Shown: positions 25,710-63,485 of the stretch, piece after piece
Numbering within the stretch: position 1 is the first letter of the stretch
Layout of the letters: every line of letters starts with the position of its first letter
Origin: an uncultured bacterium
GTDB taxonomy: Bacteria; Patescibacteriota; Minisyncoccia; UBA6257; 2-01-FULL-56-20
Length of the DNA: 64,000 nt
Direction: 5' to 3'
Assembly (NCBI GenBank): GCA_963696395.1
Contig: CAVOJZ010000002.1
Span: 363,989-427,988 of the forward strand
Notes under the pieces: model-generated
Database searches by the model: none
The model's input: the letters and a program-made list of their open reading frames with translations, nothing else
Told to the model about the DNA's origin: nothing
Made by a program: the position numbers and the translations under genes

Positions 25710-27464
25710 ATGGAAAAAATCAGTGTCGCAAAATATTTGATTTCGCTCATTCCCGGCACTGGCGTCGATACCGTTGGAGTGCTCCAGGGTGGCGCCATCG
25801 CAAAACTTATCGATGAAGTGGGCGAACATCCCGACCTCTCCTATGTTTCGCCCAACCATGAACAGGCGCTTTCCATGATGGTCGAGGCCTATGCCCGCGT
25901 TAAAGGTTTCGGCGTCGGCATGGTTACGAGCGGACCCGGCGCACAGAATCTTGTGACCGGCATCGCCTCCGCCTATTACGATTCCATCCCCTGCCTTTTT
26001 ATAACCGGCCAGGTCGGTATGTTCCACAACAAAGCGAATCGCCGCGTCCGACAGCGTGGCTTCCAGGAAACGGACGTCGTGAGCCTCATGAAGTCGATAA
26101 CGAAATACTCCGTGCTCCTCGACAAACCGGAGGATGCCCGTTACATTTTTGAAAAAGCGGTTCACCTCGCAAAGTCCGGCAGGCCGGGGCCGGTGCTCAT
26201 CGACGTTCCTTTTAACGTTCAACGGGCGCTTGTTGACCCGTCGGAACTCCGCGCCTACAACCCGGAACCAGTCGAGACGTCATCGCCTGCAGAAATCGAC
26301 CATGGCATCACGGAAATCCTCCACGATCTTCAGACAAAAGAAAAGCCGATCATTCTCCTTGGCGGTGGTGTCGAGCTTTCGAAGACCGCAGGAGCGGTGC
26401 GAAAGCTCGTAAAGCACGCGCACGTGCCGGCCGTCGTCACCTGGTGCGCGCTCGATGTTTTTGAAGCGAACGACCCGCTCTATGGCGGCAACGTCGGCCG
26501 TGCCGGCAATAAATCGGCCAATCGGGCAATCCGCGAAGCCGATTTTGTTCTCGCGCTCGGCACCCGGTTTGCAACGAAAGCTATTATCAGCGAAAAAAAC
26601 TTTGCGACGAAAGCAAAAATCACCACCATTGATGCCGACCGTGGCGAACTGGAAGACGGCCTCATCACTTCACACGTCAAAATTCAATCGACGCTCGAAA
26701 AATTTATGCCGCCGCTTCTTGCCGCTGCAGAAAAGGTGAAATTTACGCCGAAGCAGGCATGGCTCGAGGAATTCGCGGCGCTCAAAGCTGACTATTTCCG
26801 CGAAGATAATACGCCGGCCGGAAGTGCCTATGTGAGCCCTTATGAATTCACGGCACGGCTCTCAAAGGCAATGGATCCGAACACGATTATCGTCGGCGAC
26901 ACCGGCACAAACCTTTGCTGGGTCGCACAGGCGTACGAGGCAAAAATCGGCCAACGGTTCTTTTCGTCTTGGGGCAATTCGCCCATGGGATATGCTCTGC
27001 CGGCGTCCATCGGCGCACAGATCGCAGCGAAAGACAAAACGGTTGTCTGCATCACGGGCGACGGCGGCATGCAAATGAATATCCAGGAACTGCAAACGAT
27101 CGCCCTGCATAAATTCCCGGTAAAAGTTTTCGTCTTTAATAATGATTGTTATATGAACGTGAAAGCTCCATCAATCGACGAATTTGAGGGACGGTACCAC
27201 GCGCTCGGCCGGGGCATGGGTTATGCCGCGCCAGATTTCGTAAAAATCGCGAATGCCTACGGCATCGAAGCGTTCTCCATCAAAAAGGGCGACGATTTGG
27301 ACAAGAAAATTCAGCAGGCACTTTCCACGAAGGGGCCGGTTGTGGTTGACCTGAAGCTCGATCCCGATCAGCGTGCCGTCGAGGATAATGCGCTGGTCTC
27401 GCTCCCCGCGTTTGCTGCCCAGCCAAAATCGGGCGCTCCAGCCACTCCGGAAACAAAAAAATAA
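25710..27464 (+). CDS. thiamine-diphosphate-dependent acetolactate-synthase-like enzyme (YerE-like branched-sugar carboligase candidate)
   Basis: Three-domain ALS-like layout: an N-terminal pyrimidine-binding domain, a central LLGGGV domain, and a C-terminal ITGDGGMQMNIQEL...NN ThDP-binding motif (GDG-x24-NN). Confidence 0.65.
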   Translation: MEKISVAKYLISLIPGTGVDTVGVLQGGAIAKLIDEVGEHPDLSYVSPNHEQALSMMVEAYARVKGFGVGMVTSGPGAQNLVTGIASAYYDSIPCLFITGQVGMFHNKANRRVRQRGFQETDVVSLMKSITKYSVLLDKPEDARYIFEKAVHLAKSGRPGPVLIDVPFNVQRALVDPSELRAYNPEPVETSSPAEIDHGITEILHDLQTKEKPIILLGGGVELSKTAGAVRKLVKHAHVPAVVTWCALDVFEANDPLYGGNVGRAGNKSANRAIREADFVLALGTRFATKAIISEKNFATKAKITTIDADRGELEDGLITSHVKIQSTLEKFMPPLLAAAEKVKFTPKQAWLEEFAALKADYFREDNTPAGSAYVSPYEFTARLSKAMDPNTIIVGDTGTNLCWVAQAYEAKIGQRFFSSWGNSPMGYALPASIGAQIAAKDKTVVCITGDGGMQMNIQELQTIALHKFPVKVFVFNNDCYMNVKAPSIDEFEGRYHALGRGMGYAAPDFVKIANAYGIEAFSIKKGDDLDKKIQQALSTKGPVVVDLKLDPDQRAVEDNALVSLPAFAAQPKSGAPATPETKK

Positions 27465-32855: not shown

Positions 32856-34091
32856 TTATCCAAGTTTCACCACATGCGGCTCCTTGGGGAATGGCAAAAC
32901 GCAATCTCCCTTAAATTTGTAGTGATCGGTAAGATGCTTCGTGATTTCGTCTTTAAAGTTCCACGCCATGAGGAAAATACAATCCGGCTTTGTCGCCATC
33001 ACGTCGTCAGATTTCTTGATTGGAATATGCGTACCAGCCGTAAACCTTCCTTGCTTCAGCGGGTTAAGATCGATAACCACGGGCACGATGTCGGTTGTGA
33101 TCCCGCAGAAATTCAACAGCGTTGAGCTGCGTGCGGACGCGCCCCAGCCGGCAATCTTTCGGCCCTTGCTTTTCTCGTCTTTCAAAATTGCCATGAGCCT
33201 GTCGCGATGCGCGATCGAACGTGCGGCAAAATCTTTCCAGCTTGAAAACTCGTTCGTCTTGGCGGCGTTCTCGGCCTGCCGATACTTCACGACATTCATC
33301 GAGGGAGTCACCTCGCCTTTCCGCGCGTAATAGACAAGCGATCCCCCGCTGATGGGACTTTCTGTTATATCAAAGACATAGAGACCGAAATCATTCAACA
33401 GTTTTTCCATACTCTTCACTGTGAAATAACAGAGGTGCTCGTGATAGATGGAGTCGTAGTGAAGTTCATCCAAAATCACTTTCCCGTAGTGGGCTTCGAT
33501 TGCGATCGTACCGGTTTCGCTCACGGACTTCTTCAGGCCTTCGACGAAATCCCGCGTGCCGGCAACATGCGGCAAGACATTGCGGGCAAAAACGATCTCC
33601 GCCTCGCCGTTCGCGGCAACAATATCATCGGCGACCTTCGATCCGAAGAACAAGGGATCGGTCGGGATCCCCGCATCGCGCGCCATTTTGGCGACATTTT
33701 CCGCCGGGTCAATGCCAAGCACCGGAAAATTATTTTTTTGGAACGGGATGAGGAACGTACCGTCGTTGGAAGCGATTTCCAGAACGTATCCCTTTTCGCG
33801 CGCGTGCGGCGTGCGGGATACAGCGGACTCATAGAAAGTCTGCGCATGCTTGTGTGCGGTGAGCGAGGTGCCCGTAAGCCAAAGATAGTGCTTAAAAAGA
33901 ATTTCCGGTTCAATGGTTTCGTTAAGCTGTACCAGAGTGCAATTATGGCAATAACTCAGAGACAATGAGTAGGCGTCGTCTTTCAGGTCAGCCCGATCCG
34001 GCAGGGAATTCGCAAGCGGCTGCTTTCCGAGATCGAAAAATCCCTCGATTTTATTGCTTCCGCAGACACGACAAGAAGAAATTGTTTGCAT
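32856..34091 (-). CDS. NDP-hexose C-methyltransferase (TylCIII/TcaB9-like: N-terminal Zn-ribbon, SAM methyltransferase, C-terminal C-MT domain)
   Basis: N-terminal CRVCGS...CHNCTL zinc ribbon, a class-I methyltransferase core (LEIASNDG), and a total length and layout matching sugar 3-C-methyltransferases. Confidence 0.6.
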   Translation of the reverse strand: MQTISSCRVCGSNKIEGFFDLGKQPLANSLPDRADLKDDAYSLSLSYCHNCTLVQLNETIEPEILFKHYLWLTGTSLTAHKHAQTFYESAVSRTPHAREKGYVLEIASNDGTFLIPFQKNNFPVLGIDPAENVAKMARDAGIPTDPLFFGSKVADDIVAANGEAEIVFARNVLPHVAGTRDFVEGLKKSVSETGTIAIEAHYGKVILDELHYDSIYHEHLCYFTVKSMEKLLNDFGLYVFDITESPISGGSLVYYARKGEVTPSMNVVKYRQAENAAKTNEFSSWKDFAARSIAHRDRLMAILKDEKSKGRKIAGWGASARSSTLLNFCGITTDIVPVVIDLNPLKQGRFTAGTHIPIKKSDDVMATKPDCIFLMAWNFKDEITKHLTDHYKFKGDCVLPFPKEPHVVKLG

Positions 34092-34135: not shown

Positions 34136-35029
34136 CTACAGCCTCGTCCACCCGTCCGGAACCACATCCTCATTCCCCTGTGACGACGGGCTCCATCGCG
34201 CAGGCGCAACCACAATCTTTCCGGGATTTTCATTCAGCCAGGCACCCCACCAGGAAAAACTGCTGTTCGTAATCACGTTATGCTTGCACATCGACATAAG
34301 TTGGAGATGATAGCTTGCCTTTGGCCCTTCCGACGCCCGATCGATATACGTTGTCGGGAATGGAGGTTTTATATTTTCTCTGCACCACGCAATGTCGTCC
34401 GAAAAGATAAAAAACTTAGGATTTTTTACATGTTCATCGATGTAGGCGATTGCTTTGTCATAATAAGAGGAGTTGGTTTCTCCGTAAAGACTAGTGTTCT
34501 TGGGGATTAAATAGTCCGTACGCCGGACATGAAGCGAAACCGAATTTGACTCTCTGATATCTTTCGAGAGATTAAGTGCGTCGCCTTCGAGCGCGTGCTT
34601 AAATCGAAATTCTTTCCGCAATTCCTCTTCGATATCTGCGAAATAGCCAGGCGTCTGCCAGTATCCCCAAATAAGAATATTTCCCCTTGCATCGACGAGG
34701 TTTCGATCGAACACAAGTTCCTGCTTTTCTTTTAAAATTTTCTGGATGCCAAATGAATTTTTGATCTTGAGAAGTCCTAAATCGAGGCCAAGCCAGAGCC
34801 CAGGAACCGACATTGCGGTTGAGAGCTTCGAGAGCGTCGTAAACTTCGGCGTGATGTCAAAAATGTCGAGGTCGTATTCACGAAAGGTGAACTGCTTTCG
34901 TGGAAACCGGTCGTTCAGGTAGGTCGAGTCAATGAGTAAGGGGTCGTTATTTCTTTTTGCAATGCCCAATCCTGCAGCATATTGGAACATCTGATTTCCC
35001 AAACCGCCGCGCAAAAGTACAGTCACCAT
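34136..35029 (-). CDS. glycosyltransferase family 11 (alpha-1,2-fucosyltransferase-like), copy B
   Basis: LLRGGLGNQMFQYAAG is the GT11 hallmark. Confidence 0.75.
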   Translation of the reverse strand: MVTVLLRGGLGNQMFQYAAGLGIAKRNNDPLLIDSTYLNDRFPRKQFTFREYDLDIFDITPKFTTLSKLSTAMSVPGLWLGLDLGLLKIKNSFGIQKILKEKQELVFDRNLVDARGNILIWGYWQTPGYFADIEEELRKEFRFKHALEGDALNLSKDIRESNSVSLHVRRTDYLIPKNTSLYGETNSSYYDKAIAYIDEHVKNPKFFIFSDDIAWCRENIKPPFPTTYIDRASEGPKASYHLQLMSMCKHNVITNSSFSWWGAWLNENPGKIVVAPARWSPSSQGNEDVVPDGWTRL

Positions 35030-35039
35030 GTCGTTGCTG

Positions 35040-37012
<1,973 letters not shown>

Positions 37013-37757: not shown

Positions 37758-39227
37758 TTACGCGGCTTTTTGGTGCGCGTGCGCGGAGAAGTAGTAGGTT
37801 GCGAACCCGAAGAATAGGAACAAGTTGATGTACATGGGGAAGACGTCGAAAATGGCGAGACCCTGGACGAGATATGCCACCGGCAATGCCAAAATCGCGC
37901 CCTTTAGAACCGTCGATGCATTTGCATGCTCGCCTCTCTTGTGAAGGTCGCGCCGGCGGAAGAATTCCCAGAAGATTACGAAGAAAATGCTTGCGTACGC
38001 AAGAAGTCCGATAAGTCCCGTCTCGGAAAGATAATCAAAGACGATGCTGTGTGCACGGTCGAACCAGGTTTCCGTATTCTGGTTCGGCACATAGAACCGC
38101 GGATCGAAATACCTGTCATACACCGCCGTGAAATTTTCCGGACCCCATCCGAAAACAGGCCGCGCAAGGAATCCCTGCCACGCTTCACCCCAAACCCAAA
38201 GGCGGGTTTGCGCCGTAGAGTCGGACAGGCTGATTTGCAACAACCGCCCTTCCGGCAAATTCTGCACGAATGTGCTGTTGCGCTCGGCGTAAGCTCCGAC
38301 GCCCAATATGATAAGTAAAATAGCAACCGCCGCAGACCACTTCCTGACCTTCACGCTGCCCGTGAAGGCAAAGTAGGCGAGGAGGGCAATCACGCCGGCA
38401 CCAAGACCAAGGAACGCGCCGCGCGTTTGCGTGAGGATGAAGAAGAATAAGAATACAACAAGAAGTGCGCTATAACCCCACGTGGCAAGTTTCGAGGATT
38501 TATTTTCAATCCTCCCGGCGAGCCAGAGATAAACCGCATAGAATGCCGCGAAAAGAAGATACGGAGCCACATAAGCCGGGTTACCAAGCGAACCTTCAAA
38601 ACGACCGTCGATCAAAATGTGCCACCAGCCTGCCGGAGCTCCCCCGCCGGCGTAAGGACCGATAAAGCCATTAACCATATAGTTTCCGAGAAGGCCGTAC
38701 CCGATCATAAGCCCCGACGCAACGAGCGACCAGCGGAAAATATTCTTCCAATCGTTCTCCTCCTGGAAGAGCGTCACGAGGAGCATGAAGAAGATGTAGT
38801 AGTGAATCATCTGGAAGCCTCCTTCGCCGCGTTCATAGTTTGACCAGAACGCCGCATGCGCATCGAGTGCAAACGCGCAGGCGAGAAGGAACGCCGCCAC
38901 AAATGCCGTCACCGCAATAACAAGCGGCTTCTTGTAATTCGCTTTTATGAGATTTTTTATTTCGTCCTTGCGAGCTTCGAATGCCCAATAAAGGATATAG
39001 GCGATAAGCGAGAGCTCAACCGTGAAGCGGAAAAAATAATCCTTTCCGCCGATGAACGGGAAAAAAATTGAGTCCATCACGACCACGACCGCCAGCACGG
39101 ATATATAGAGATACCACTTTGAGATTTGCTTGAACGAAAACTTGAGGAATTTGCCGATGATACCGACGAGGAGCAGACCTGCAATTACGGACGTTACGAG
39201 CGGATAATTAAATATGGTGTCGGACAT
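37758..39227 (-). CDS. O-antigen ligase / Wzy-like polymerase family membrane protein
   Basis: 489 aa with about 12 TM segments. TQTRGAFLGLGAG and a periplasmic loop followed by GWGPENF are typical of the Wzy_C/O-antigen ligase family. Confidence 0.5.
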   Translation of the reverse strand: MSDTIFNYPLVTSVIAGLLLVGIIGKFLKFSFKQISKWYLYISVLAVVVVMDSIFFPFIGGKDYFFRFTVELSLIAYILYWAFEARKDEIKNLIKANYKKPLVIAVTAFVAAFLLACAFALDAHAAFWSNYERGEGGFQMIHYYIFFMLLVTLFQEENDWKNIFRWSLVASGLMIGYGLLGNYMVNGFIGPYAGGGAPAGWWHILIDGRFEGSLGNPAYVAPYLLFAAFYAVYLWLAGRIENKSSKLATWGYSALLVVFLFFFILTQTRGAFLGLGAGVIALLAYFAFTGSVKVRKWSAAVAILLIILGVGAYAERNSTFVQNLPEGRLLQISLSDSTAQTRLWVWGEAWQGFLARPVFGWGPENFTAVYDRYFDPRFYVPNQNTETWFDRAHSIVFDYLSETGLIGLLAYASIFFVIFWEFFRRRDLHKRGEHANASTVLKGAILALPVAYLVQGLAIFDVFPMYINLFLFFGFATYYFSAHAHQKAA

Positions 39228-48411: not shown

Positions 48412-51400
48412 TTATACCTTTCGAATTGCAACCCACGCCTCCTGCCCCTCAATCTGCGTCGCCTGCTCCGCGATAAACTTATCCGACCGCTTGTATTCAA
48501 TTGCCTTTGCACCGACTTCGGCCTTGAACAACGCCTCATTATTTTCTATCGCCGTTTTGGCGTCGCCTTGCAGTTGAAGTAAAACGGCAATTCTGTCTTT
48601 CGGCGAAAGCCCGGCCTTCTGCCGCAATTCCTGCACCATACGCACAAAATCACGCAACAACCCTTCCTGCCGCAGAGCGGGCGTTATCGTTGTATCGAGC
48701 TCACAGGCCTCCGCCATTAAGCGGGCCTTGGCTGGCGGCACCACCAAAACTTTTTTCACGTTCACTTCGTCGGCCAAAATTGCAAGCAGGGGTTTAAGGG
48801 ATTTTAATGTCTGATCTTTCACCCGAAACTCCGCGAGCGGCTGGCGCACTTTGATTCCCGCTTCCGAACGCTTCCCGAGCCCGTGCGCCGCAAGATCTCT
48901 GACCGCTTTCATTCCCGCAATCATTTTTTTATCAACCGCTTTTTTATCCGCGGACGGCCAGGCGTCCAGATGAACCGACTCGAACGCTCCGCCAAGCGGT
49001 GCATACAAGATTTCCGAAAAGAATGGCGTGAATGGTGCCATCAGTTTCACGAGCGTGAGCAACGCGTGTCCGAGCATCGCCGATGCGGCTTTGTAATCGG
49101 CTGCGTTATCGGGTTTTTGGAGTCTCCGACGAGAGCGACGGATATACCATCGGGAAAGATCGTCAACGAGCGTTTCGATTTCAAGGGCGGCTTCGCGAAT
49201 CTCATATTGGTTTACATGTTCAGTCACCGAAAGGGTCGCTTCATTCAGCCGAGCAAAAATCCATGCGTCGAGTGCGTTTTTTGTACTGATCGCTCTGGCT
49301 TTCTGGTCGGCGTAGGTTCTCCAGAAAATAAATGAGTTGTAGACAATGAGATGCACGCGCCGAAAAGCTTTTGCAACTTCGCGGTCATCGAAATTTTTCG
49401 GCTCGCCAAGCGGAACGCTCGTATAGAAATACCACCTGAGCGCATCCACGCCCTGAGCGTCGATCATCGAAAACGGTTCGACAATGTTGCCCTTTGACTT
49501 GGACATCTTCTGCCCGAATTTGTCATTGATAAGGCCGAGCGCCACAACGTTCTTGTAGGGTGCCTGATAGCCAAGCGCTGTTGCGATGGCAAGAAGTGTA
49601 TAGAACCAGCCCCTCGTCTGATCCATACCTTCGGCAATATATTCCGCCGGATAATCGAGTTTTGATAATGTTTTAGCTCCGACGTTTTTACCTTCTGCCG
49701 CCACGCTGAACGGATAATGAGACTGTGCATACGGCATTGCTCCCGAGTCGTACCAGACGTCGGCGACTTCGCGGACCCGCTTCATGATTCCTTTTTTGCA
49801 ATGAGCACATGGGAAATCGATCGTGTCCGCGAATGGCCGGTGGAGGTCAACTTCGCCCGTGTCGTTTCGGGGAACCACCTTCACGCGCAAACTGCGGATC
49901 TCTGCAAAACCGATAAAGTCGTCACCGCGCGCTTCCTTCTCGACAACCGCGCGCTTCTTGCTCCACCCTTCCGCCGCCTGCGTAAGCATCCACGTTGGAT
50001 ATTCATGCGTCACGAGCAGGATATTTTTGCCTTCATGCTTCGCCTCGCATTTTTTTATAAACTCCCACGTGCGGGTTCGAAGATCAACCAACGACTCCCC
50101 TCCCTCCGGCCGCTCCGCAAACCGCGATTCATAGGTCGGAAACATCTCGCCGTATTTCTTATCTTTATATCCCGTAAGTTTCGGCCCCAAATGAATTTCT
50201 TCGATCGCCGAATCAAGCATTGGCTTCACGCCCAAAATTTCGCCGACGATAGCCGCCGTTTCCATGGTTCGTGCAACGTCAGAATCAATAAGCACATCGA
50301 TTTTCGCGCGATGCTTGCCGAGTGACTTCTTAAATTCCTCCGCCGCCTTCGCAGCCTGTTTTTTGCCGCGTGGGGTAAGCTTTAAGTTTTTCCGTTGACC
50401 CGAATCGATAATATGAAATACGTTTGCCTCGGATTCGCCGTGCCGCATAATCCAATAGTTATTCTTTGAACCGCCCGCGAGTTCATCCAACGAATCCAGA
50501 CTCGAAACGACATCGGTGTGCCCGCACGATGCACATTCCCAGATGGGAAGCGGAGCGCCCCAATAACGCTCCCTCGAAAGATTCCAATCTTTTGCCTCCT
50601 TAATCCATTCGCCAAATCTGCCGTCTTTCACGTGTTCGGGCATCCAGTTGATGGTTTTATTTCGGGCCATGAGCTCCTTTCGCAAACCGCTCATGCCGAT
50701 AAACCACGACGTTCGGGCGTAATATAAAATTGCCGTTCCACAGCGCCAACAATATGGATATTCGTGAGTGTAAGTTTCGGTTCGCAAAAGATTTCCATTC
50801 GCCTTGAGATGGGCGAAAATCTTTTCCTCGGCGTCCTTCGACTTCACGTACAATCCCGCAAGTCCTTTCACGTCCGCTTTAAACTTTCCCTCTTCATCAA
50901 CCGTATGCTTTTCCGGAAGACCTATTCGTTTTCCGAGTGCATAGTCATCTTCGCCGTACATCACGGCAGTATGCACGACGCCGGTGCCGTCGGTCGTCGT
51001 CACAAAATCAGCAGGATACACCTTGTACGACGACGACGTTTTGAGGGCAGGGACAGCAAAAAGCGGTTCGTATTCCAATCCCACCAATTGCGAGCCTGTG
51101 ATTTTTCGCGGAGCGCTTCCGCCATCGAGACCCAAGTCTTTCAGCCGATCCTCCGCTGCGATCAAGTATTCCCCGTCTTTTTCCACGGCGTAATACGGTA
51201 TCTTCGGGCCAACCGCAAGCGCGACGTTTCCCGGCAACGTCCAAGGGGTTGTCGTCCACGACAATATATATATTTTGTCCGAAGGTTCAATTGTATGATC
51301 GCCAATCTTTTGCCCGGGTTTTAATCTAAATTTAACGTACACCGAATTATCCACGGTTTCCTTATATCCCTGAGCGAGCTCGTGCGAAGAAAGCGACGTT

Positions 51401-51981
51401 CCACACCGCGTGCACCACGGCACGACTTTATGCCCTTTATAGAGCAATTTTCGTTTTGAAATCTCGCTCAACGTCCACCATAGCGTCTCAATATATTCCG
51501 GTTCGTAGGTGATGTAGGCATTTTTTAGATCCAGCCAATACCCGATCCGGTTGGTAAGCTTTTCCCAATCATCTTTATAAAGCCACACCTGTTCTTTTGC
51601 CTTTTCGTTAAAAAGCTTGATGCCGAATTTTTCGATTTCTTTTTTCGATTTAAGTCCAAGCGCTTTTTCCGCGGCCATCTCCACCGGAAGGCCATGCGTG
51701 TCCCATCCCGCACGGCGCGGAACAAAATATCCCTGCATCGTTTTATAACGCAGGACCACATCCTTCACGACACGCGAAAGCACGTGATGAATGCCCGGCT
51801 TGCCGTTGGCGTACGGCGGACCTTCGTAGAAAATAAACTTCTTCCTTGCCGGCTTGGCCAGCGATTTTTCAAAAATATGTTCCGCATTCCAAAAATCCAA
51901 AACTTTTTCCTCGAGTTTTGGGAGGTTAAATTCGCCTTCTAAAAAATGATGTGCGGTTTTTTGTTTTGGCTTCCGTGGCAT
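48412..51981 (-). CDS. ileS: isoleucyl-tRNA synthetase carrying an inserted histidine-phosphatase (PGAM-like) domain
   Basis: PPYANGKPGIHH (HIGH variant), WDTHGLPVE, Zn-ligand pairs flanking CP1 (CTRC...CWRC), QKMSKSKGN, and an anticodon-binding region. It is 1189 aa, against roughly 900-1050 for typical IleRS. The extra ~230 aa (residues ~495-725) contain IMRHGESEAN, LTPRGKKQA, SDVARTMETA and LLVTHEYP. Confidence 0.9.
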   Translation of the reverse strand: MPRKPKQKTAHHFLEGEFNLPKLEEKVLDFWNAEHIFEKSLAKPARKKFIFYEGPPYANGKPGIHHVLSRVVKDVVLRYKTMQGYFVPRRAGWDTHGLPVEMAAEKALGLKSKKEIEKFGIKLFNEKAKEQVWLYKDDWEKLTNRIGYWLDLKNAYITYEPEYIETLWWTLSEISKRKLLYKGHKVVPWCTRCGTSLSSHELAQGYKETVDNSVYVKFRLKPGQKIGDHTIEPSDKIYILSWTTTPWTLPGNVALAVGPKIPYYAVEKDGEYLIAAEDRLKDLGLDGGSAPRKITGSQLVGLEYEPLFAVPALKTSSSYKVYPADFVTTTDGTGVVHTAVMYGEDDYALGKRIGLPEKHTVDEEGKFKADVKGLAGLYVKSKDAEEKIFAHLKANGNLLRTETYTHEYPYCWRCGTAILYYARTSWFIGMSGLRKELMARNKTINWMPEHVKDGRFGEWIKEAKDWNLSRERYWGAPLPIWECASCGHTDVVSSLDSLDELAGGSKNNYWIMRHGESEANVFHIIDSGQRKNLKLTPRGKKQAAKAAEEFKKSLGKHRAKIDVLIDSDVARTMETAAIVGEILGVKPMLDSAIEEIHLGPKLTGYKDKKYGEMFPTYESRFAERPEGGESLVDLRTRTWEFIKKCEAKHEGKNILLVTHEYPTWMLTQAAEGWSKKRAVVEKEARGDDFIGFAEIRSLRVKVVPRNDTGEVDLHRPFADTIDFPCAHCKKGIMKRVREVADVWYDSGAMPYAQSHYPFSVAAEGKNVGAKTLSKLDYPAEYIAEGMDQTRGWFYTLLAIATALGYQAPYKNVVALGLINDKFGQKMSKSKGNIVEPFSMIDAQGVDALRWYFYTSVPLGEPKNFDDREVAKAFRRVHLIVYNSFIFWRTYADQKARAISTKNALDAWIFARLNEATLSVTEHVNQYEIREAALEIETLVDDLSRWYIRRSRRRLQKPDNAADYKAASAMLGHALLTLVKLMAPFTPFFSEILYAPLGGAFESVHLDAWPSADKKAVDKKMIAGMKAVRDLAAHGLGKRSEAGIKVRQPLAEFRVKDQTLKSLKPLLAILADEVNVKKVLVVPPAKARLMAEACELDTTITPALRQEGLLRDFVRMVQELRQKAGLSPKDRIAVLLQLQGDAKTAIENNEALFKAEVGAKAIEYKRSDKFIAEQATQIEGQEAWVAIRKV

Positions 51982-57162: not shown

Positions 57163-57870
57163 TTAGTGCGAGACGGGTGTACCCGATGCGGCGGCAACAG
57201 CCTGGTCCAATACCGTGGCGAAGTCCGAATAGCTTGCAGGGTTCTGGATCTGGGTCAGATTAACGAAGTAGGTCGGCGTATGGTCAATCTGCGCCGAGTT
57301 GCCGCCGGCCACATCGGCCTGAATTTTATTGAGCACGGCATTCGAGCTGATGTCCTGGTTGAATTTATTTACATCGAGCCCAAGCGATTGAGCGTAGCCG
57401 TCGAAAAATTTTGAAACGACTTGATCGGGGCTTGTTGAAGACCAGTCATTTTGTTTTTCATAGAGAAGATTATTCATCTGCCAATATTTTCCCTGAAGGC
57501 CGGCTGCTTCAGCTGCCTGGGCGGAAATGCCCGCATCTGGATGCACCTGATACAACGGATAGTTTCTGAAGACGAATAAAACGGTTGAGCTGTAATTCGA
57601 TATTATCTGCTGGACGATCGGGAAGTAGGCGCCGCAGGCCGGACATTCGAAATCTCCGTATTCCACGAGCGACACCTTGGCTTTTGGATTGCCTTCCTGC
57701 CAATCGGCGCCGGTTATTGCCGGAACGGTCGTCGCGGTGAACGTTCCGGACGACGAAGTCGAGGACGAACCCGATGAATAGATGCCCGCGATGACGAGCC
57801 CTCCGATGATGAGAACGACGAAGCCGACGATGAACCAGATTGTTGTTTTATTGGTTTCTGTATTGGCCAT
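57163..57870 (-). CDS. DsbA-like thiol:disulfide oxidoreductase with N-terminal TM anchor (second copy)
   Basis: EYGDFECPACGAYF...LVFRNYPL follows the same CxxC thioredoxin-fold pattern as the gene at the window start. Confidence 0.7.
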   Translation of the reverse strand: MANTETNKTTIWFIVGFVVLIIGGLVIAGIYSSGSSSTSSSGTFTATTVPAITGADWQEGNPKAKVSLVEYGDFECPACGAYFPIVQQIISNYSSTVLFVFRNYPLYQVHPDAGISAQAAEAAGLQGKYWQMNNLLYEKQNDWSSTSPDQVVSKFFDGYAQSLGLDVNKFNQDISSNAVLNKIQADVAGGNSAQIDHTPTYFVNLTQIQNPASYSDFATVLDQAVAAASGTPVSH

Positions 57871-57941
57871 TGCCTTATTATAAGGCACCCACGAAACAAA
57901 GCAAAATTTTTTCCGTATAGTATAAAACGCAACGAACATCC

Positions 57942-59192
57942 ATGCAGGAACAACAAAAAACTATATTCATTTTGGGGGGTGATGGCTATCTTGGCTGGAG
58001 CCTCGGCCTTGGTTTTGCAAACCGCACCGACCTTCGCGTCGTCCTCGTGGACAATCTCATCAAGCGGACATGGGAGAAAAATGTCGGCGCCAAACTGCTT
58101 GTCCCGCTCGCGAAGCCCTCAAAACGCATCGCCGAATACAAAAATATTTTCGGCAAAACGAACCTCACTTTTGAGAAACTTGATCTGCTCAACGCAGACG
58201 CCATCGTTTCGCTTATAAAAAAATATCGCCCGTTCGCAATCATAAATGCAGCTCAACAGCCATCTGCACCTTTTTCGATGATGAACGCAAAGGGAGCCGC
58301 AGCAACTTTCACCAATAATATTGTCGGGCACGTAAACACCATCTGGGCAATTACGGAAATCGATCGGGACATTCTTTACCTTAAACTCGGATCCGCGGGC
58401 TGCTATTCAAGTATCGACACCGAATACGTGCCGCTCTCTAAAAAAGACTTTGAATTCAATCACAACGGGGCGATCAAAAAAATCGCGAACAGCTGGCTGC
58501 CGATGCATGCCCATGATTTTTACCATCAATCAAAAATTGCGGACTTCCTCATTGACGATCTCGCAAGCGACGTTTGGAAGCTGAAGATTGTCACCGTACA
58601 ACAGGCAACCATCTATGGCGCAACAATCGCCGAAAACGAACCAGTGGAACACGAAAGCCTCGTAACCCGGTTCAATTATGATGAAACCTTCGGCACCGTC
58701 ATCAACCGGTTCGTATGCCAGATCGCAATCGACCATCCGCTCACCGTTTACGGGGACGGCGAACAGCGCACCGGAGTCATCAGCCTGTCCGATACCATCG
58801 ATAATTTTATGAAGTTTTCGACTATGGATGTCGCACGGGGGGAACATGCCGTCGTCCATAACGTCACGGATCGCCTCACCATAAAGGAAATTGTGGAGAT
58901 GCTACAAAAGGCAAGCGGATTTTCAAGGATCTCGTTTATAGATAACCCGCGCAAAGAAATGAATGGCGCCCTCAAACGTGAAGTTGAGCGGCATGTCCTC
59001 CTTGGCGCTCCTCACGTTGCCGAACGGGAACTTGCCTCACTCCTCGCTTTTGCAGAGCGCTACAAAGAAAATATCGACCCGTCGCTTATCATGCCAAAGG
59101 TCAAGTGGGAGCGCGCAGCGGTTTTGCCCACAAAGCCTCCGGCCAAGGCCGGAAAGCCGTCGACAATATTTGAAGAAGCCGTATCGCTCTAA
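57942..59192 (+). CDS. sqdB: UDP-sulfoquinovose synthase family (SQD1/SqdB/Agl3-like SDR)
   Basis: ILGGDGYLGWSLG...VDNLIKR...QQPSAPFSM...NNIVGHVN...YLKLGSAGCYS...FYHQSKI...QATIYG...FNYDETFGTVINRFVCQIAIDHPLTVYGDGEQRTG...IMPKVKWER aligns motif-for-motif with plant SQD1 ([73 protein letters not shown]). Confidence 0.75.
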   Translation: MQEQQKTIFILGGDGYLGWSLGLGFANRTDLRVVLVDNLIKRTWEKNVGAKLLVPLAKPSKRIAEYKNIFGKTNLTFEKLDLLNADAIVSLIKKYRPFAIINAAQQPSAPFSMMNAKGAAATFTNNIVGHVNTIWAITEIDRDILYLKLGSAGCYSSIDTEYVPLSKKDFEFNHNGAIKKIANSWLPMHAHDFYHQSKIADFLIDDLASDVWKLKIVTVQQATIYGATIAENEPVEHESLVTRFNYDETFGTVINRFVCQIAIDHPLTVYGDGEQRTGVISLSDTIDNFMKFSTMDVARGEHAVVHNVTDRLTIKEIVEMLQKASGFSRISFIDNPRKEMNGALKREVERHVLLGAPHVAERELASLLAFAERYKENIDPSLIMPKVKWERAAVLPTKPPAKAGKPSTIFEEAVSL

Positions 59193-59204
59193 TCCCCATC
59201 ATCC

Positions 59205-60353
59205 ATGCCTGCGCCAAGAAAAAAATCAATCCCTTTTTATTATGCGACGGTGGCTCCCCTTTCGGATGCCGCCTACGCAGCAGGACACGAATATCTTGAA
59301 ATGTACCGTGAAATTGGTTCACCGGAAATTCTTTTTGAGTACGAACACCGCCGGCGGACAGTGGAAAATGTCGCCGCGGAAGGCGCGAAGCTTCTGAACT
59401 GCGGCGTCGACGAAATAACGTTCATCCCAAACACCACCTACGGCATCAATGTCGCGAGCCATGCATTGCCGTTGAAGGAAGGTGATGAAATTATTGTCCA
59501 AACATCCGAATATAAGAGCAATTATTGGCCGTGGATCAAGAAGAAGGAGTGCGACGGTTGTGTCGTCCGTGAAATTGAAGCCCGCGATAACGCGGAAGGG
59601 TTCGAAAACCTTCTCGCCGCAATCAATCCTCGAACAAAAATAGTTGCCGTTTCGTGGATACAATATTATGACGGGTATATCACGGATCTCGAGCGGCTCT
59701 CGCGCGCATGCCGCGAGAACGGGGCGCTTCTTGTCGTTGACGCGGTACAGGGAATCGGCGTGCGAAAGCTTGACCTCAAAAAAATCCACATCGATATTCT
59801 TGCGGCCGGGGGTCAAAAATATTTATGCGCGGGCAGTGGCGGCGGCCTTCTTTATATCAACCGCACCATCCTGCCGATGCTCTGCGATACTTTCGTCGGC
59901 ATTCGAAGCATCTGTCCGTCATCGTCCGCCAATGAATATAAGCTCAAAGCGAGTGCGGAGCGATTCCAGACAGGAACCATCGACATGCAAGCGGCAGTCC
60001 AGCTTCATGCCGCCCTTAAAGAAACGAACAGGGTGGGCATAAAAGCGATCGAATCAAAAAATATCACACTCCTTACAGCGTTCAAAAAACTATTGCACGA
60101 CAACCACATTCCTTTCATCGATCATGGCAAAAAACAAGGCAACATCATCTCCCTCACATTGCCCGATCCAAAAAACCTTGTGGAATTTCTCGCCAAAGAC
60201 CGCATTTATATCAAATGCGTCAACGACGTCGCACGCATCTCGTTTAATTACACTACAAGCGTCAGCGACTTCGAGGAACTCGTCGCAAAAATCCGGGAAT
60301 ACAACATCACCCTACCGCACGCTCTCGTAGCCCCCGCGCACGCCACGCTTTGA
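59205..60353 (+). CDS. class-V aminotransferase / cysteine-desulfurase-like PLP-dependent enzyme
   Basis: AAGGQKYLCAGSGGG is a PLP-lysine region. The overall fold-type I layout and length are consistent. Confidence 0.55.
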   Translation: MPAPRKKSIPFYYATVAPLSDAAYAAGHEYLEMYREIGSPEILFEYEHRRRTVENVAAEGAKLLNCGVDEITFIPNTTYGINVASHALPLKEGDEIIVQTSEYKSNYWPWIKKKECDGCVVREIEARDNAEGFENLLAAINPRTKIVAVSWIQYYDGYITDLERLSRACRENGALLVVDAVQGIGVRKLDLKKIHIDILAAGGQKYLCAGSGGGLLYINRTILPMLCDTFVGIRSICPSSSANEYKLKASAERFQTGTIDMQAAVQLHAALKETNRVGIKAIESKNITLLTAFKKLLHDNHIPFIDHGKKQGNIISLTLPDPKNLVEFLAKDRIYIKCVNDVARISFNYTTSVSDFEELVAKIREYNITLPHALVAPAHATL

Positions 60354-61451
60354 AAGAACGATCTGCCATAGCTGGTTGGTCCTCGCACGAAATGATCCGG
60401 CGCTTGAAAGAAGATAAAATCGCCACATCCTATGGAACACCTCGCCGTAATGCCCGGCGATTTCCGGCCAGTGTTTTTCGAAGTTTGCGGCCCAGGCCAT
60501 GAGCGTCTTATCGTAATCCGCCCCAAAGTTATGCCAGTCCTCCATCACAAACACGTTCTCGATATTCTTCCCGATAAACGCCACCGACGGGAGCATACCG
60601 TTCGGAAAAATATATTTGTGCATCCAAGGTTCCGTGTGAATCAGCGAACTGTTCGTGCCGATCGTATGCAAAAGAAATAGCCCGCCATCGCACAAGTGGT
60701 CGCTTACCGTCTTAAAATAGGTCCGATAATTTTTGTGGCCGACATGCTCGAACATGCCGAGCGAAACAATATGGTCAAACACCCCTTCGATTTCCCGATA
60801 ATCCTGCAGGCGTAATTCAACAGACAGGCCCTCGCACATCTTCCTCCCGAGCGCGACCTGCTCTTTTGAAACGGTCACCCCGACGACATTCGCCTTGTAT
60901 CGCTCTGCGGCAAATTTTGCAAAGCTTCCCCATCCGCAACCAATATCGAGGACTTTCTGTCCGGGCTGTATGCGAAGTTTACGACAGACGAGGTTGAGTT
61001 TCGCCTCCTGCGCGGCATCAAGATTCTGCGGATTGTTATCCAGACCATGCCAATAGCCGCAGGTGTAAGTCATTCGGCGGTCGAGCATGCCTTTAAAAAG
61101 ATCATTTCCCGCATCGTAATGCCGCTCGCCGATTTCGAAGGCGCGCGACCTGGCTCCGAAATTCGTAAGGAGCGCCTCGAGCGCGATGAGCACATTGCCG
61201 GGCGTGAGCTTTATCCTGCCTTGGAGATTGGCCGAAAAAATTCTTTCGATAAGTTCGTCGAGAGCGGCACAGTCCCACCATCCGGCCATGTAAGCCTCCC
61301 CGAATGCAAGCGATCCGCCACGAATCACGGCTCGGTAAAAGCGCTCATCATAAACCAGAATATCCCATGCCCGCCCCGCATCGCCCGTCGGATTTACGCG
61401 GATGTCCACCTCTGCAAGCAATTTCTCTATCGCCGCCTTCGCACGATCCAT
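60312..61451 (-). CDS. cfa: cyclopropane-fatty-acyl-phospholipid synthase family SAM methyltransferase
   Basis: VLDIGCGWGSFAKFAAERYKANVVGVTVSKEQ and the length and layout of CFA/mycolic-acid cyclopropane synthases. Confidence 0.75.
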   Translation of the reverse strand: MDRAKAAIEKLLAEVDIRVNPTGDAGRAWDILVYDERFYRAVIRGGSLAFGEAYMAGWWDCAALDELIERIFSANLQGRIKLTPGNVLIALEALLTNFGARSRAFEIGERHYDAGNDLFKGMLDRRMTYTCGYWHGLDNNPQNLDAAQEAKLNLVCRKLRIQPGQKVLDIGCGWGSFAKFAAERYKANVVGVTVSKEQVALGRKMCEGLSVELRLQDYREIEGVFDHIVSLGMFEHVGHKNYRTYFKTVSDHLCDGGLFLLHTIGTNSSLIHTEPWMHKYIFPNGMLPSVAFIGKNIENVFVMEDWHNFGADYDKTLMAWAANFEKHWPEIAGHYGEVFHRMWRFYLLSSAGSFRARTNQLWQIVLSKRGVRGGYESVR

Positions 61452-63053: not shown

Positions 63054-63485
63054 TTAACGAAGTTCGTATGGCAGATCGCCGACTGGTTCGAAATCTGCCG
63101 GAATGTCAGCGGGCGGTTCAAATGTGTAGGGCTTGGCGCTACTTCCCAGCATGAGCGTTCCCGCCATCCCATAAGCGCGATGAGCGATTCCCGCCGGAAC
63201 AAGAAGGATCCACCCTGCCTTCATGACAAATCGCTCCTTTTCGTCGGCTTCGCGATCCCAAAGATCGAAGGTAACCTCGCCGCGAACAACAAAATACAGT
63301 TCTGCGTAGGCGTGGAAATGACCCTGCTTCCCGAGAAAATCATTTTGGTGCAGCTCGAGAAGTTTTATTTGCTCCGCCGTGTAGCCGTTCAGATCGGGAT
63401 CTCCATTGCAGATACCGAACAGGGTTCGCTGCGGGCGCTTGTTGGTTAAATTTGGATCAGATTCACGACAGACAACTCCGCGCAT
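63054..63485 (-). CDS. cupin-domain protein
   Basis: HAYAELYFVVRGEVTF...LLVPAGIAHRA is a two-motif cupin signature. Confidence 0.55.
   Translation of the reverse strand: MRGVVCRESDPNLTNKRPQRTLFGICNGDPDLNGYTAEQIKLLELHQNDFLGKQGHFHAYAELYFVVRGEVTFDLWDREADEKERFVMKAGWILLVPAGIAHRAYGMAGTLMLGSSAKPYTFEPPADIPADFEPVGDLPYELR

What the first reader, a model, noticed from the sequence alone, without database searches (positions are those of the whole stretch)
57942..60353. SQD1/SqdB-like UDP-sulfoquinovose synthase with a class-V PLP enzyme, far from any SqdX-type partner
The 416-aa product aligns motif-for-motif with plant SQD1 and bacterial SqdB, including the extended C-terminal FGTxxNRFxxQAxxxHPLTVYGxGxQTRG block. 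It is immediately followed, 12 nt later, by a cysteine-desulfurase-like aminotransferase. That pairing suggests a sulfonated sugar, sulfoquinovose or a derivative, is made here. It may be destined for the large glycan island elsewhere in this window, as in archaeal Agl3 N-glycans, rather than for a classical SQDG lipid. No SqdX/SQD2 lipid glycosyltransferase is adjacent. The PLP enzyme could hint at an alternative sulfur-delivery route.
Basis: partly seen in the sequence, partly recalled or inferred. Interest (0 to 1): 0.6.

Follow-up and report, generated by a model that had tools for sequence, protein, structure and literature searches.

The report
SQD1-like sugar enzyme with obligate PLP partner
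The two genes are real and belong together: they form a conserved, once even fused, enzyme pair in ultra-small CPR bacteria and Arthrobacter relatives, in which a remodelled cousin of the plant sulfolipid enzyme SQD1 works with a cysteine-desulfurase-like enzyme that has lost its desulfurase machinery, probably to put sulfur on a sugar by an undescribed route.

Summary
Both ORFs exist exactly as described: 416 aa and 382 aa, 12 nt apart. The first has the SQD1 fold (1qrr, E 1e-57; model TM 0.80-0.85) and keeps Ser/Thr145, Tyr182, His183 and Lys186. It is not an ordinary SqdB. It belongs to a monophyletic long-branch clade (50/50 bootstraps; 62% identity within, 29% to other SQD1-like proteins) found in CPR/Patescibacteria and Micrococcaceae. 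In this clade the family fingerprint T-M-G-E-Y is S-[A/G]-G-C-Y and Ser180 is Asp, at positions shown to matter in Agl3. The PLP neighbour is not incidental. Its orthologue is adjacent in 11/11 informative clade loci, fused to the SDR in one Saccharibacteria genome (798 aa), and absent from 79/79 loci of other SQD1-like genes, 55 of which carry a GT2 instead. The partner is SufS/C-DES-like but lacks the 13-residue catalytic-Cys loop and the desulfurase His residues, so it cannot form a persulfide. Best reading (about 0.45): a two-enzyme module in which the PLP enzyme releases a small sulfur nucleophile (probably sulfite) from a cysteine-derived amino acid, and the SDR adds it to C6 of a UDP-hexose. 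Rivals are a 6-thio sugar made via C-S lyase and a keto-sugar aminotransferase. No link to the glycan island was found. It appears uncharacterised.

The parts
57942..59192 (+). SQD1-like extended SDR, 416 aa, member of the S-[A/G]-G-C-Y / T-D-F-Y-H-Q-S-K clade. Key residues, window numbering (SQD1 numbering in brackets): GGDGYLGW 12-19 NAD motif; N102 (H96); P107 (R101); S151 (T145); A152 (M146); C154 (E148); Y155 (Y149); D192 (S180); Y194 (Y182); H195 (H183); K198 (K186); Q220-Q221 (N208-Q209); R337 (R327). Residues 387-416 form a disordered Pro/Lys-rich tail.
   Evidence: ORF. PDB 1qrr E 1.2e-57, full length. NF041015 255 bits vs cut-off 575. Clade residue table. AF2 model pLDDT 81. Foldseek 1qrr E 1e-34, TM 0.80/0.85. 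NJ tree, clade monophyletic 50/50.
59193..59204 (+). 12-nt intergenic spacer (tccccatcatcc) between the stop of the SDR gene and the ATG of the PLP gene. The two genes are co-directional and operon-like, with no terminator-like site between them.
   Evidence: Sequence read directly. Terminator scan.
59205..60353 (+). Dedicated class-V PLP partner, 382 aa. It has the SufS/C-DES-like fold with PLP Lys205 (GGQK), Asp179, Gln182, Thr258 and the alpha-carboxylate Arg344. It lacks the catalytic-Cys loop through a 13-residue deletion after K337. The desulfurase residues His123/124, His225 and H55/R56 are replaced by Tyr103-Lys/Pro, Gln204 and GPPE. The motif VGIRS (R234) is specific to and invariant in the partner family.
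   Evidence: Pfam PF00266 1.5e-46. NCBIfam SufS subfamily only 115 bits vs cut-off 475. Orthologue alignments A1/A3/A4. Profile vs PDB showing the loop deletion. Alignment with E. coli SufS/CsdA/SerC. AF2 pLDDT 92. Foldseek: best E-value SufS-type, best TM/rmsd C-DES 1elq at 0.84/2.9 A.

Best explanation
The two genes encode a self-contained two-enzyme module, a single fused polypeptide in one genome, that installs a sulfur substituent at C6 of a UDP-hexose. The SDR works like SQD1. Tightly bound NAD+ oxidises C4 of the UDP-sugar, and water is eliminated to give the 4-keto-5,6-ene. A nucleophile then adds at C6 and NADH reduces C4 again. The PLP partner descends from SufS/CsdA/C-DES-type enzymes but has lost all persulfide machinery. 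It acts on a cysteine-derived alpha-amino acid and releases a small sulfur nucleophile next to the SDR. The most likely nucleophile is sulfite, from L-cysteine sulfinate (CsdA-type desulfination) or from L-cysteate (beta-elimination). The product would then be UDP-sulfoquinovose or a close 6-sulfur analogue, made without assimilatory sulfate reduction. SHOWN: the homology and fold of both proteins; retention of the NAD and UDP-sugar motifs and of the Ser/Tyr/His/Lys catalytic residues; the clade-specific active-site changes; the obligate pairing and the fusion; the deletion of the Cys loop. INFERRED: the sugar substrate, the amino-acid substrate, which enzyme acts first, and the product.
For: Pairing. 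The partner orthologue is adjacent in the window and in L001/2, L003, L004/5, L006, L007, L008, L009, L094, L095 and L096, in either co-directional or convergent orientation, and in otherwise unrelated neighbourhoods of CPR and Micrococcaceae genomes. No other gene family recurs in three or more loci. Fusion. L007:5995-8391 is one 798-aa ORF carrying both domains. Specificity. 0/79 non-clade SQD1-like loci have a partner homologue. The partner family is a tight group at 250 bits or more, followed by a gap to 162 bits or less. SQD1-like chemistry. Full-length SQD1 match and fold. GGDGYxGW, Y182-H183-x-x-K186, the FGTxxNRF...PLTVYG block and NPR327 are invariant in 120 clade members. Partner chemistry. 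The PLP Lys/Asp/Thr and the alpha-carboxylate Arg are invariant, which points to an amino-acid substrate. The RxGHHCA loop is deleted, so no persulfide can form. The closest global geometry is the Cys-less C-S lyase C-DES. From my own knowledge (Mihara et al., J Biochem 2000), the cysteine-sulfinate desulfinase and selenocysteine-lyase activities of E. coli CsdA/CsdB survive mutation of the catalytic Cys. Need. No sulfate-assimilation gene was found in the window. By contrast, a non-clade SQD1-like gene (L010) sits next to cysD.
Against: If sulfite were still the nucleophile, the fixed replacement of residues important in Agl3 is unexplained. These are Met145 (the Ala mutant is inactive), Glu147 (12% activity) and Ser180 (impaired). 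An added Asp at position 180 would not favour an anion. The partner has Gln-Lys, as in the aminotransferase SerC, and a Tyr in place of the acid/base His123, so desulfinase or lyase chemistry is not assured. A source of cysteine sulfinate or cysteate is not evident: the nearby cupin at 63054-63485 did not match CDO. Arthrobacter species are expected to make sulfite anyway (my own knowledge). No glycosyltransferase consumer is consistently linked. One short contig (L011) shows a clade SDR followed by a MurA/EPSP-synthase-like gene instead of the partner. Nothing here is biochemical.
Confidence: 0.45

Rival explanations
1. Reverse order, thiol product. The SDR adds the thiol of L-cysteine (or another S-amino acid) to the 5,6-ene, giving a UDP-6-S-cysteinyl-6-deoxyhexose. 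The PLP partner is then a C-S beta-lyase, following EgtE/C-DES logic. It cleaves the cysteine moiety to leave UDP-6-thio-6-deoxyglucose plus pyruvate and ammonia. The product would be a new thiosugar or a low-molecular-weight thiol precursor.
For: The partner is closest in TM/rmsd to the C-S lyase C-DES. It also hits the EgtE PLP-lyase model weakly (2e-9). The alpha-carboxylate Arg is kept, which fits an S-substituted cysteine substrate. In the SDR, M146->A/G enlarges the pocket and the new invariant Asp180 could bind an amino-acid ammonium group, which would explain why the sulfite-type fingerprint changed. Thiol-redox genes lie immediately upstream in several CPR loci: DsbA-like in the window, L003 and L094, and AhpC/Redoxin in L006.
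Against: No 6-thio sugar of this type turned up in the literature search. The redox neighbours are lineage-specific synteny and are absent from L001, L004, L095 and L096. C-DES-specific residues were not tested. There is no direct evidence for cysteine as the nucleophile.
Confidence: 0.2
2. Amino-sugar route. The clade SDR has become a dehydratase that releases a keto-sugar of the 4-keto-6-deoxy type, and the class-V PLP enzyme is an aminotransferase that converts it to an amino-deoxy sugar. No sulfur is involved.
For: SDR plus PLP-aminotransferase is the standard logic of amino-sugar pathways. The partner has Gln-Lys like SerC and an aromatic PLP-stacking residue instead of His. It gives weak PF01041 DegT/DnrJ/EryC1 and PF00155 hits. 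It has lost every desulfurase-specific residue. The SDR has lost the SQD1/Agl3 Met and Glu.
Against: All partner homology above noise is to SufS/CsdA/C-DES, and identity to SerC is only 16%. To my knowledge the known sugar aminotransferases are DegT-family, not class V. The SDR lacks the Asp/Glu (or Asp/Lys) acid-base pair of 4,6-dehydratases (TDE/TDK in review PMC8987622). It keeps the SQD1-specific His183 and the overall SQD1 architecture. The window already encodes many conventional sugar SDRs.
Confidence: 0.15
3. An ordinary UDP-sulfoquinovose synthase (SqdB/Agl3 orthologue) uses free sulfite and supplies sulfoquinovose to the glycan island or to a lipid. The PLP gene is merely a neighbour or a general cysteine desulfurase.
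For: Clear SQD1 homology, with the catalytic Ser/Tyr/His/Lys conserved. A big glycan island is in the same window. JGI pipelines name clade members 'UDP-sulfoquinovose synthase'.
Against: Pairing in 11/11 loci plus a fusion, against 0/79 in other SQD1-like loci. The clade is separate, on a long stem, with a changed fingerprint. It scores 255 bits where real SQD1 scores 487. The partner cannot be a desulfurase. The GT2 that accompanies 55/79 other SQD1-like genes has no homologue in the window or in clade loci. The island is more than 18 kb away and is not linked to the pair in other genomes.
Confidence: 0.1

Closest known systems
UDP-sulfoquinovose synthase SQD1 (Arabidopsis, PDB 1qrr/1i24), bacterial SqdB, archaeal Agl3 (EC 3.13.1.1)
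   Same: The same extended-SDR fold over the full length, including the SQD1-specific insertions and the C-terminal domain (TM 0.80-0.85). The same GGDGYxGW NAD motif, Ser/Thr145, Tyr182-His183-x-x-Lys186, the UDP-binding FGTxxNRF...PLTVYG block and NPR327. It very probably uses the same 4-oxidation and 5,6-dehydration chemistry on a UDP-hexose.
   Different: About 30% identity. It is a separate monophyletic long-branch clade. The fingerprint T-M-G-E-Y has become S-[A/G]-G-C-Y, Ser180 has become Asp and Asn208 has become Gln. It scores about half of what genuine SQD1 scores on the equivalog HMM. There is no associated sulfoquinovosyltransferase. It has an obligate (once fused) PLP partner, which no characterised SQD1/SqdB/Agl3 has.
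Class II cysteine desulfurases / cysteine sulfinate desulfinase (SufS, CsdA; PDB 5b7s, 5j8q, 1jf9, 4lw2)
   Same: Best sequence and profile matches (E 1e-25 for the single sequence, 9e-43 for the profile). Fold-type I class-V PLP architecture. The PLP Lys, Asp, Gln, the phosphate-binding Thr and the alpha-carboxylate Arg are conserved. The desulfinase side activity of CsdA would give exactly the sulfite that an SQD1-type enzyme needs.
   Different: A 13-residue deletion removes the RxGHHCA catalytic-Cys loop. His123/His124, His225, Arg359 and the VHRG (H55/R56) motif are all replaced. No SufE/SufU/CsdE-type acceptor is nearby. It cannot form an enzyme persulfide.
C-DES, cyst(e)ine C-S lyase of Synechocystis (PDB 1elq/1n31)
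   Same: A SufS relative without the nucleophilic Cys. It is the only solved structure that the single sequence matches over its full length, and it is the best TM-score/rmsd match to the model (0.84, 2.9 A). It shows that this scaffold can release small sulfur species by beta-elimination.
   Different: Only about 22% identity. C-DES is not known to be paired with a sugar enzyme. The partner's own invariant residues (Tyr103, Gln204, Arg234 in VGIRS) were not compared with the C-DES active site.
SQD1-FdGOGAT complex of spinach chloroplasts (proposed sulfite channelling; my own knowledge of Shimojima and Benning 2003/2005, not checked here)
   Same: Precedent for the idea that a UDP-SQ synthase needs a protein partner to obtain its sulfur donor efficiently.
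   Different: A completely different partner protein with no PLP chemistry, no gene fusion and no operon.
TunA / Pen UDP-GlcNAc 5,6-dehydratases
   Same: SDRs that stop at the 5,6-ene. TunA uses a Cys in its acid/base pair (TCE motif; review PMC8987622), which recalls the Cys that replaces Glu148 here.
   Different: A different SDR subfamily and a different motif position. No sequence-level kinship beyond the superfamily was seen.

Membership tests
UDP-sulfoquinovose synthase (SQD1/SqdB/Agl3) | Extended-SDR fold with the SQD1-type architecture over the full length | tested here: met
   phmmer vs PDB: 1qrr E 1.2e-57, residues 6-394. Foldseek: 1qrr E 1e-34, TM 0.80/0.85; next-best folds have TM 0.62 or less.
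UDP-sulfoquinovose synthase (SQD1/SqdB/Agl3) | GxxGxxG NAD motif and catalytic Ser/Thr145-Tyr182-Lys186 plus His183 | tested here: met
   GGDGYLGW, S151, Y194, H195 and K198 in the window protein. Invariant or nearly so in 120 clade members.
UDP-sulfoquinovose synthase (SQD1/SqdB/Agl3) | Family fingerprint [ST]-M-G-(E)-Y after the catalytic Ser/Thr, and Ser180 (Agl3 M145A inactive; E147A 12% activity; S180A impaired) | tested here: not met
   The clade reads S-[A/G]-G-C-Y (Cys in 112/120) and Asp180 (120/120). Nearly all other SQD1-like sequences read TMGEY and Ser180, a few of them with V, I, Q or A at position 148.
UDP-sulfoquinovose synthase (SQD1/SqdB/Agl3) | Score on the NCBIfam equivalog NF041015 comparable with proven members | tested here: not met
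   255 bits (clade range 248-266), against 487 for spinach SQD1 and 463 for a gammaproteobacterial homologue. The cut-off is 575, which SQD1 itself fails, so the comparison is relative.
UDP-sulfoquinovose synthase (SQD1/SqdB/Agl3) | Phylogenetic placement among characterised members | tested here: inconclusive
   NJ tree: the clade is monophyletic in 50/50 bootstraps on a stem of about 0.6 substitutions per site. It is nested inside the SQD1-like superfamily, not among generic epimerases. No Agl3 or proven bacterial SqdB sequence was available, and only distance methods were used.
UDP-sulfoquinovose synthase (SQD1/SqdB/Agl3) | Genomic association with a sulfoquinovosyltransferase (SqdX/SQD2 GT4, SqdD, or the GT2 seen next to most other homologues) | tested here: not met
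   No GT4 was found in the window. The GT2 found in 55/79 non-clade loci has no homologue in the window or in clade loci. No GT recurs beside the pair.
UDP-sulfoquinovose synthase (SQD1/SqdB/Agl3) | Catalyses UDP-glucose + sulfite -> UDP-sulfoquinovose | not testable with these tools
   Needs an enzyme assay.
Class II cysteine desulfurase (SufS/CsdA) | Class-V fold with the PLP-binding Lys, Asp and alpha-carboxylate Arg | tested here: met
   PF00266 1.5e-46. K205, D179 and R344 are invariant. Model pLDDT 92, TM about 0.8 to SufS structures.
Class II cysteine desulfurase (SufS/CsdA) | Catalytic cysteine in the RxGHHCA loop (identifier of class II, review PMC8300815) | tested here: not met
   A 13-residue deletion lies exactly at this loop in the family profile and in the alignment with E. 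coli SufS/CsdA. The residual position reads C/Q/A/P/V/Y among orthologues.
Class II cysteine desulfurase (SufS/CsdA) | Desulfurase-specific His123 (PLP stacking, acid/base), His225-Lys226, Arg359 and the VHRG motif | tested here: not met
   These are replaced by Tyr103, Gln204-Lys205, Lys337 and GPPE.
Class II cysteine desulfurase (SufS/CsdA) | Equivalog/subfamily HMM score above cut-off | tested here: not met
   TIGR01979 SufS 115 bits vs 475; CsdA 85 vs 494.
C-DES-type cyst(e)ine C-S lyase | SufS-like fold without the nucleophilic Cys, with full-length similarity | tested here: met
   1elq is the only full-length single-sequence match (E 1e-16, 38-366). The profile scores 5.8e-29. It has the best TM/rmsd, 0.84/2.9 A.
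C-DES-type cyst(e)ine C-S lyase | C-DES active-site residues and beta-elimination activity on cystine | not tested
   No residue-level comparison with C-DES was made. The activity needs an assay.
Class-V aminotransferases (SerC/AGT type) | Gln-Lys PLP motif with an aromatic stacking residue, and global similarity | tested here: inconclusive
   GGQK resembles SerC GAQK, and Tyr103 is aromatic. Identity to SerC is only 16%, and one orthologue has GGHK.

The most novel reading that the evidence does not exclude
The pair is a previously unknown sulfur-into-sugar machine whose product is not sulfoquinovose but a 6-thio (or 6-S-cysteinyl) UDP-hexose. The remodelled SQD1-like enzyme would take an amino-acid-derived thiol or persulfide instead of sulfite, and the Cys-loop-less SufS/C-DES descendant would act as the C-S lyase or sulfur releaser. 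That would define a new thiosugar or low-molecular-weight thiol pathway shared by CPR bacteria and their actinobacterial relatives or hosts.
Probability: 0.2. Interest if true: 0.85.

Novelty: new variant of a known kind. Interest (0 to 1): 0.62.

Why it matters
UDP-sulfoquinovose synthases are the only known enzymes that make the C-S bond of the sulfo-sugar that dominates the biological sulfonate cycle, and how they obtain their sulfur donor in vivo has long been uncertain. This work identifies a distinct branch of that family that is genetically welded to a PLP enzyme derived from cysteine desulfurases: always adjacent, and once fused. If the PLP enzyme feeds sulfite or another sulfur species from an amino acid, this is a new assimilation-independent route to sulfo- or thio-sugars. 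It occurs in organisms (CPR/Patescibacteria) with minimal metabolism and unknown surface chemistry, and in cultivable Arthrobacter/Sinomonas, where it can be tested directly. It also warns that automated 'UDP-sulfoquinovose synthase' and 'cysteine desulfurase/selenocysteine lyase' labels on these genes are probably wrong in detail.

Tried and rejected

(2) The single genome-contig scan was run with one protein and returned only 4 loci. An alignment query would have been better.

(3) The search for homologous proteins with SQD1 returned only plant sequences. Diversity was obtained instead from the 50%-identity representative library.

(4) The metagenome scan recovered mostly non-clade SQD1-like genes. 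These were reused as a negative control.

(5) I first took R101->P and H96->N to be clade-specific losses of residues essential in Agl3. I rejected this because many non-clade SQD1-like proteins also have P101/N96.

(6) I considered Cys154 (E148->C) as an obligate persulfide carrier that accepts sulfur in trans from the Cys-less partner. This is unlikely, because 8/120 members have S/T/V there.

(7) The Rfam scan of 7 clade loci for sulfur-responsive riboswitches found only tRNA and tmRNA.

(8) The nearby cupin (63054-63485) matched Cupin_2/ARD only, not cysteine dioxygenase.

(9) Literature searches for the pairing, for 6-thio sugars, and for sulfoquinovose in CPR found no description of this system. 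The original SQD1 structure paper (PMC23906) is not held.

(10) The first two tree scripts failed or timed out.

(11) The fusion protein could not be submitted for structure prediction because of tool restrictions, and model coordinates are not exposed. No 3D distances to the substrate could therefore be measured.


Full report
OBSERVATION. The window contains two co-directional ORFs exactly where stated. The first is 57942-59192 (416 aa) and the second is 59205-60353 (382 aa). They are separated by the 12-nt spacer tccccatcatcc, and no terminator-like site lies between them. ORF1 aligns over its whole length with Arabidopsis SQD1 (1qrr, E 1.2e-57). ORF2 is a class-V PLP enzyme (PF00266, E 1.5e-46).

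THE SDR IS SQD1-LIKE BUT NOT AN ORDINARY SqdB. An AlphaFold2 model (pLDDT 81) matches SQD1 far better than any other solved SDR. SQD1 gives E 1e-34 and TM 0.80/0.85, and the next matches give E about 1e-18 and TM 0.62 or less. The NAD motif GGDGYLGW, Ser151 (SQD1 Thr145), Tyr194-His195-x-x-Lys198 (Tyr182/His183/Lys186), the UDP-binding block and NPR337 are all present. They are invariant or nearly so in 120 homologues.

The protein nevertheless scores only 255 bits on the NCBIfam equivalog for UDP-sulfoquinovose synthase. Two other clade members score 248 and 266. Spinach SQD1 scores 487 and a gammaproteobacterial homologue scores 463. SQD1 itself is below the 575-bit cut-off, so it is the relative score that is informative.

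Its close relatives (55-71% identity) come from CPR/Patescibacteria (Paceibacterota, Saccharimonadales, Staskawiczbacteria) and from Micrococcaceae (Arthrobacter, Pseudarthrobacter, Paenarthrobacter, Sinomonas). NCBI calls them only 'NAD-dependent epimerase/dehydratase'.

I compared them with 89 full-length representatives of SQD1-side diversity, plant SQD1s and outgroup SDRs. The group is monophyletic in 50/50 NJ bootstraps and sits on a stem of about 0.6 substitutions per site. It is nested inside the SQD1-like superfamily. Identity is 62% within the clade, 29% to other SQD1-like proteins and 19% to outgroups.

The active-site fingerprint is altered in a fixed way (SQD1 numbering):
- Thr145->Ser
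- Met146->Ala/Gly
- Glu148->Cys (112/120)
- Ser180->Asp (120/120)
- Asn208->Gln

Nearly all other SQD1-like sequences read TMGEY and Ser180, a few with V, I, Q or A at position 148. In Agl3, M145A is inactive, E147A keeps 12% activity and S180A is impaired. Glu147/Tyr148 were proposed to carry out the dehydration step (PMC4388408). A review gives [ST]MG...Yx3K as the family signature (PMC8987622). Two substitutions that I first took as diagnostic, R101->P and H96->N, are also common outside the clade and are not.

THE PLP GENE IS AN OBLIGATE PARTNER. Its orthologue lies next to the SDR gene in every clade locus long enough to judge. These are the window, L001/L002 (Sinomonas), L003, L004/L005, L006, L007, L008, L009, L094, L095 and L096 (Arthrobacter chromosome). 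The orientation is either co-directional or convergent, and the neighbourhoods are otherwise unrelated. Only the window, L003 and L094 share wider synteny (ArgRS-SmpB-BacA-DsbA-like-SDR-PLP). Clustering all neighbouring ORFs found no other family in three or more loci.

In the Saccharibacteria contig L007 the two are one uninterrupted 798-aa ORF. It has the SDR domain (SAGCY, TDFYHQSK), a Thr/Lys-rich linker, and then the PLP domain (GGQK).

The partner forms a tight orthologue group (250-865 bits), followed by a gap to 162 bits or less. At least 19 of its 41 members sit on contigs whose length is identical to that of an SDR-clade hit.

As a control, none of 79 loci encoding other SQD1-like proteins (TMGEY type) has a partner homologue within the flanks. 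Instead 55 of the 79 carry a conserved GT2 glycosyltransferase, and that GT2 has no homologue in the window or in any clade locus. One exception was seen: on the short contig L011 a clade SDR is followed by a MurA/EPSP-synthase-like ORF.

WHAT THE PARTNER IS. By sequence and profile it is closest to class II cysteine desulfurases (5b7s 4e-25; profile 9e-43). Single-sequence alignments stop before the catalytic loop. The only full-length single-sequence match is C-DES, the Cys-less cystine C-S lyase.

Profile alignment, and a MAFFT alignment with E. coli SufS, CsdA and SerC taken from MG1655, show a 13-residue deletion that removes the RxGHHCA loop. A review gives that loop as the identifier of class II desulfurases (PMC8300815). 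The residual position reads C/Q/A/P/V/Y among orthologues.

The generic PLP residues are invariant: Asp179, Gln182, Lys205, Thr258 and the alpha-carboxylate Arg344. The desulfurase-specific residues are all replaced:
- VHRG (H55/R56) -> GPPE
- EHHAN (H123/H124) -> EY[P/K]xN
- GHK -> GQK, as in SerC
- R359 -> K

The family also has its own invariant VGIRS motif. The model is confident (pLDDT 92). Foldseek ranks SufS-type structures first by E-value, but C-DES is best by TM-score and rmsd (0.84, 2.9 A). So the partner cannot make an enzyme persulfide. It most likely still handles an alpha-amino acid.

MECHANISM. The most economical reading is a two-enzyme sulfur-into-sugar module. The SDR performs SQD1-type 4-oxidation and 5,6-dehydration on a UDP-hexose. 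The PLP enzyme supplies the sulfur nucleophile locally from a cysteine-derived amino acid. The nucleophile is most plausibly sulfite, either from cysteine sulfinate or from cysteate by beta-elimination. The cysteine-sulfinate route is a CsdA-type reaction which, to my knowledge, does not need the catalytic Cys. The fusion and the obligate adjacency argue for direct hand-over.

This fits organisms without sulfate assimilation. None was seen in the window, whereas a non-clade homologue sits next to cysD. I give this reading about 0.45.

The fixed changes at Met146, Glu148 and Ser180 are not explained by a sulfite nucleophile. They leave room for two rivals:
- A reversed order, in which the SDR adds cysteine and the partner acts as a beta-lyase, giving a 6-thio sugar (about 0.2).
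- A sulfur-free dehydratase plus aminotransferase route, favoured by the Gln-Lys/Tyr features of the partner (about 0.15).

The baseline view, an ordinary SqdB with an incidental neighbour feeding the glycan island, is largely refuted (about 0.1).

CONTEXT. The window comes from a contig of about 0.91 Mb, and its nearest relatives are Paceibacterota. A glycan island spans about 3-39 kb. It contains an initiating sugar transferase, two Wzx, a Wzy, GT2s, two GT11s, GMD, many SDRs, a C-methyltransferase and a TPP enzyme. It is followed by housekeeping genes and then the pair. No GT4/SqdX-like protein was found, even among ORFs without strong Pfam hits. No riboswitch accompanies the pair.

NOVELTY. 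Searches of the held literature found no description of an SQD1-like/class-V PLP pair, of 6-thio sugar biosynthesis of this kind, or of sulfoquinovose in CPR bacteria. I class the finding as a new variant of a known kind: a known fold and probably known core chemistry, with a new obligate partner, a remodelled active site and an unknown product. It is directly testable in cultivable Micrococcaceae.

Noticed in passing
L007:5995-8391 (Saccharibacteria MAG contig CAZTNI010000001.1): Natural fusion of the SQD1-like SDR and the PLP partner into one 798-aa protein with a Thr/Lys-rich linker. It is the only fusion seen among the loci and hit lists examined.
   Followed up: yes
window 48412-51981 (-): A 1189-aa class I (Ile/Leu/Val/Met-type) tRNA synthetase carries an inserted histidine-phosphatase (His_Phos_1) domain at residues 510-676, splitting the catalytic domain. 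This is an unusual architecture.
   Followed up: no
window ~3269-39227: A large surface-glycan island. It contains Bac_transf (5782-7119), two Wzx-type flippases (10062-11543, 24144-25607), Wzy_C (37758-39227), GT2s, two GT11 fucosyltransferase-like genes (18360-19265, 34136-35029), GMD (35993-37012), a sugar C-methyltransferase (32856-34091), a TPP-dependent enzyme (25710-27464), an aldo-keto reductase, and a GHMP kinase plus NTP-transferase/HAD. The TPP enzyme plus C-methyltransferase hint at a branched or unusual sugar.
   Followed up: partly
L014-L090 (soil and other metagenome loci), e.g. L072:4293-5285: 55 of 79 non-clade SQD1-like genes (TMGEY type) have a conserved GT2-family neighbour rather than a GT4 SqdX. 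This may be an unrecognised type of sulfoquinovosyltransferase.
   Followed up: partly
L010:3827-9160 (uncultured gammaproteobacterium): A TMGEY-type SQD1-like gene sits between NeuC/NeuB-like (nonulosonic acid) genes and cysD. This suggests sulfoquinovose in a capsule or glycan context, with co-located sulfate activation.
   Followed up: no
L011:556-2503: The only clade SDR without an adjacent partner. It is followed 4 nt later by a MurA/EPSP-synthase-like (enolpyruvyl transferase) ORF. The contig is too short to see more.
   Followed up: no
window 60312-61451 (-) vs 59205-60353 (+): The cyclopropane-fatty-acyl-phospholipid synthase gene (NF008686, 554 bits) converges on the PLP gene and overlaps its 3' end by 42 nt.
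   Followed up: no
window 57163-57939 (-); L003, L094, L006: A DsbA-like/Thioredoxin_4 lipoprotein-type gene lies divergently upstream of the pair in the window, L003 and L094. An AhpC/Redoxin gene lies upstream in L006. This thiol-redox theme is lineage-specific rather than universal.
   Followed up: partly
clade distribution: The clade is shared at 55-60% identity between CPR bacteria (including Saccharibacteria, which are epibionts of Actinobacteria) and Micrococcaceae. This suggests horizontal transfer between symbiont and host lineages.
   Followed up: no
window 7769-10000 (-): A 743-aa protein with a lecithin:cholesterol acyltransferase-like (LCAT) domain lies inside the glycan island.
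   Followed up: no
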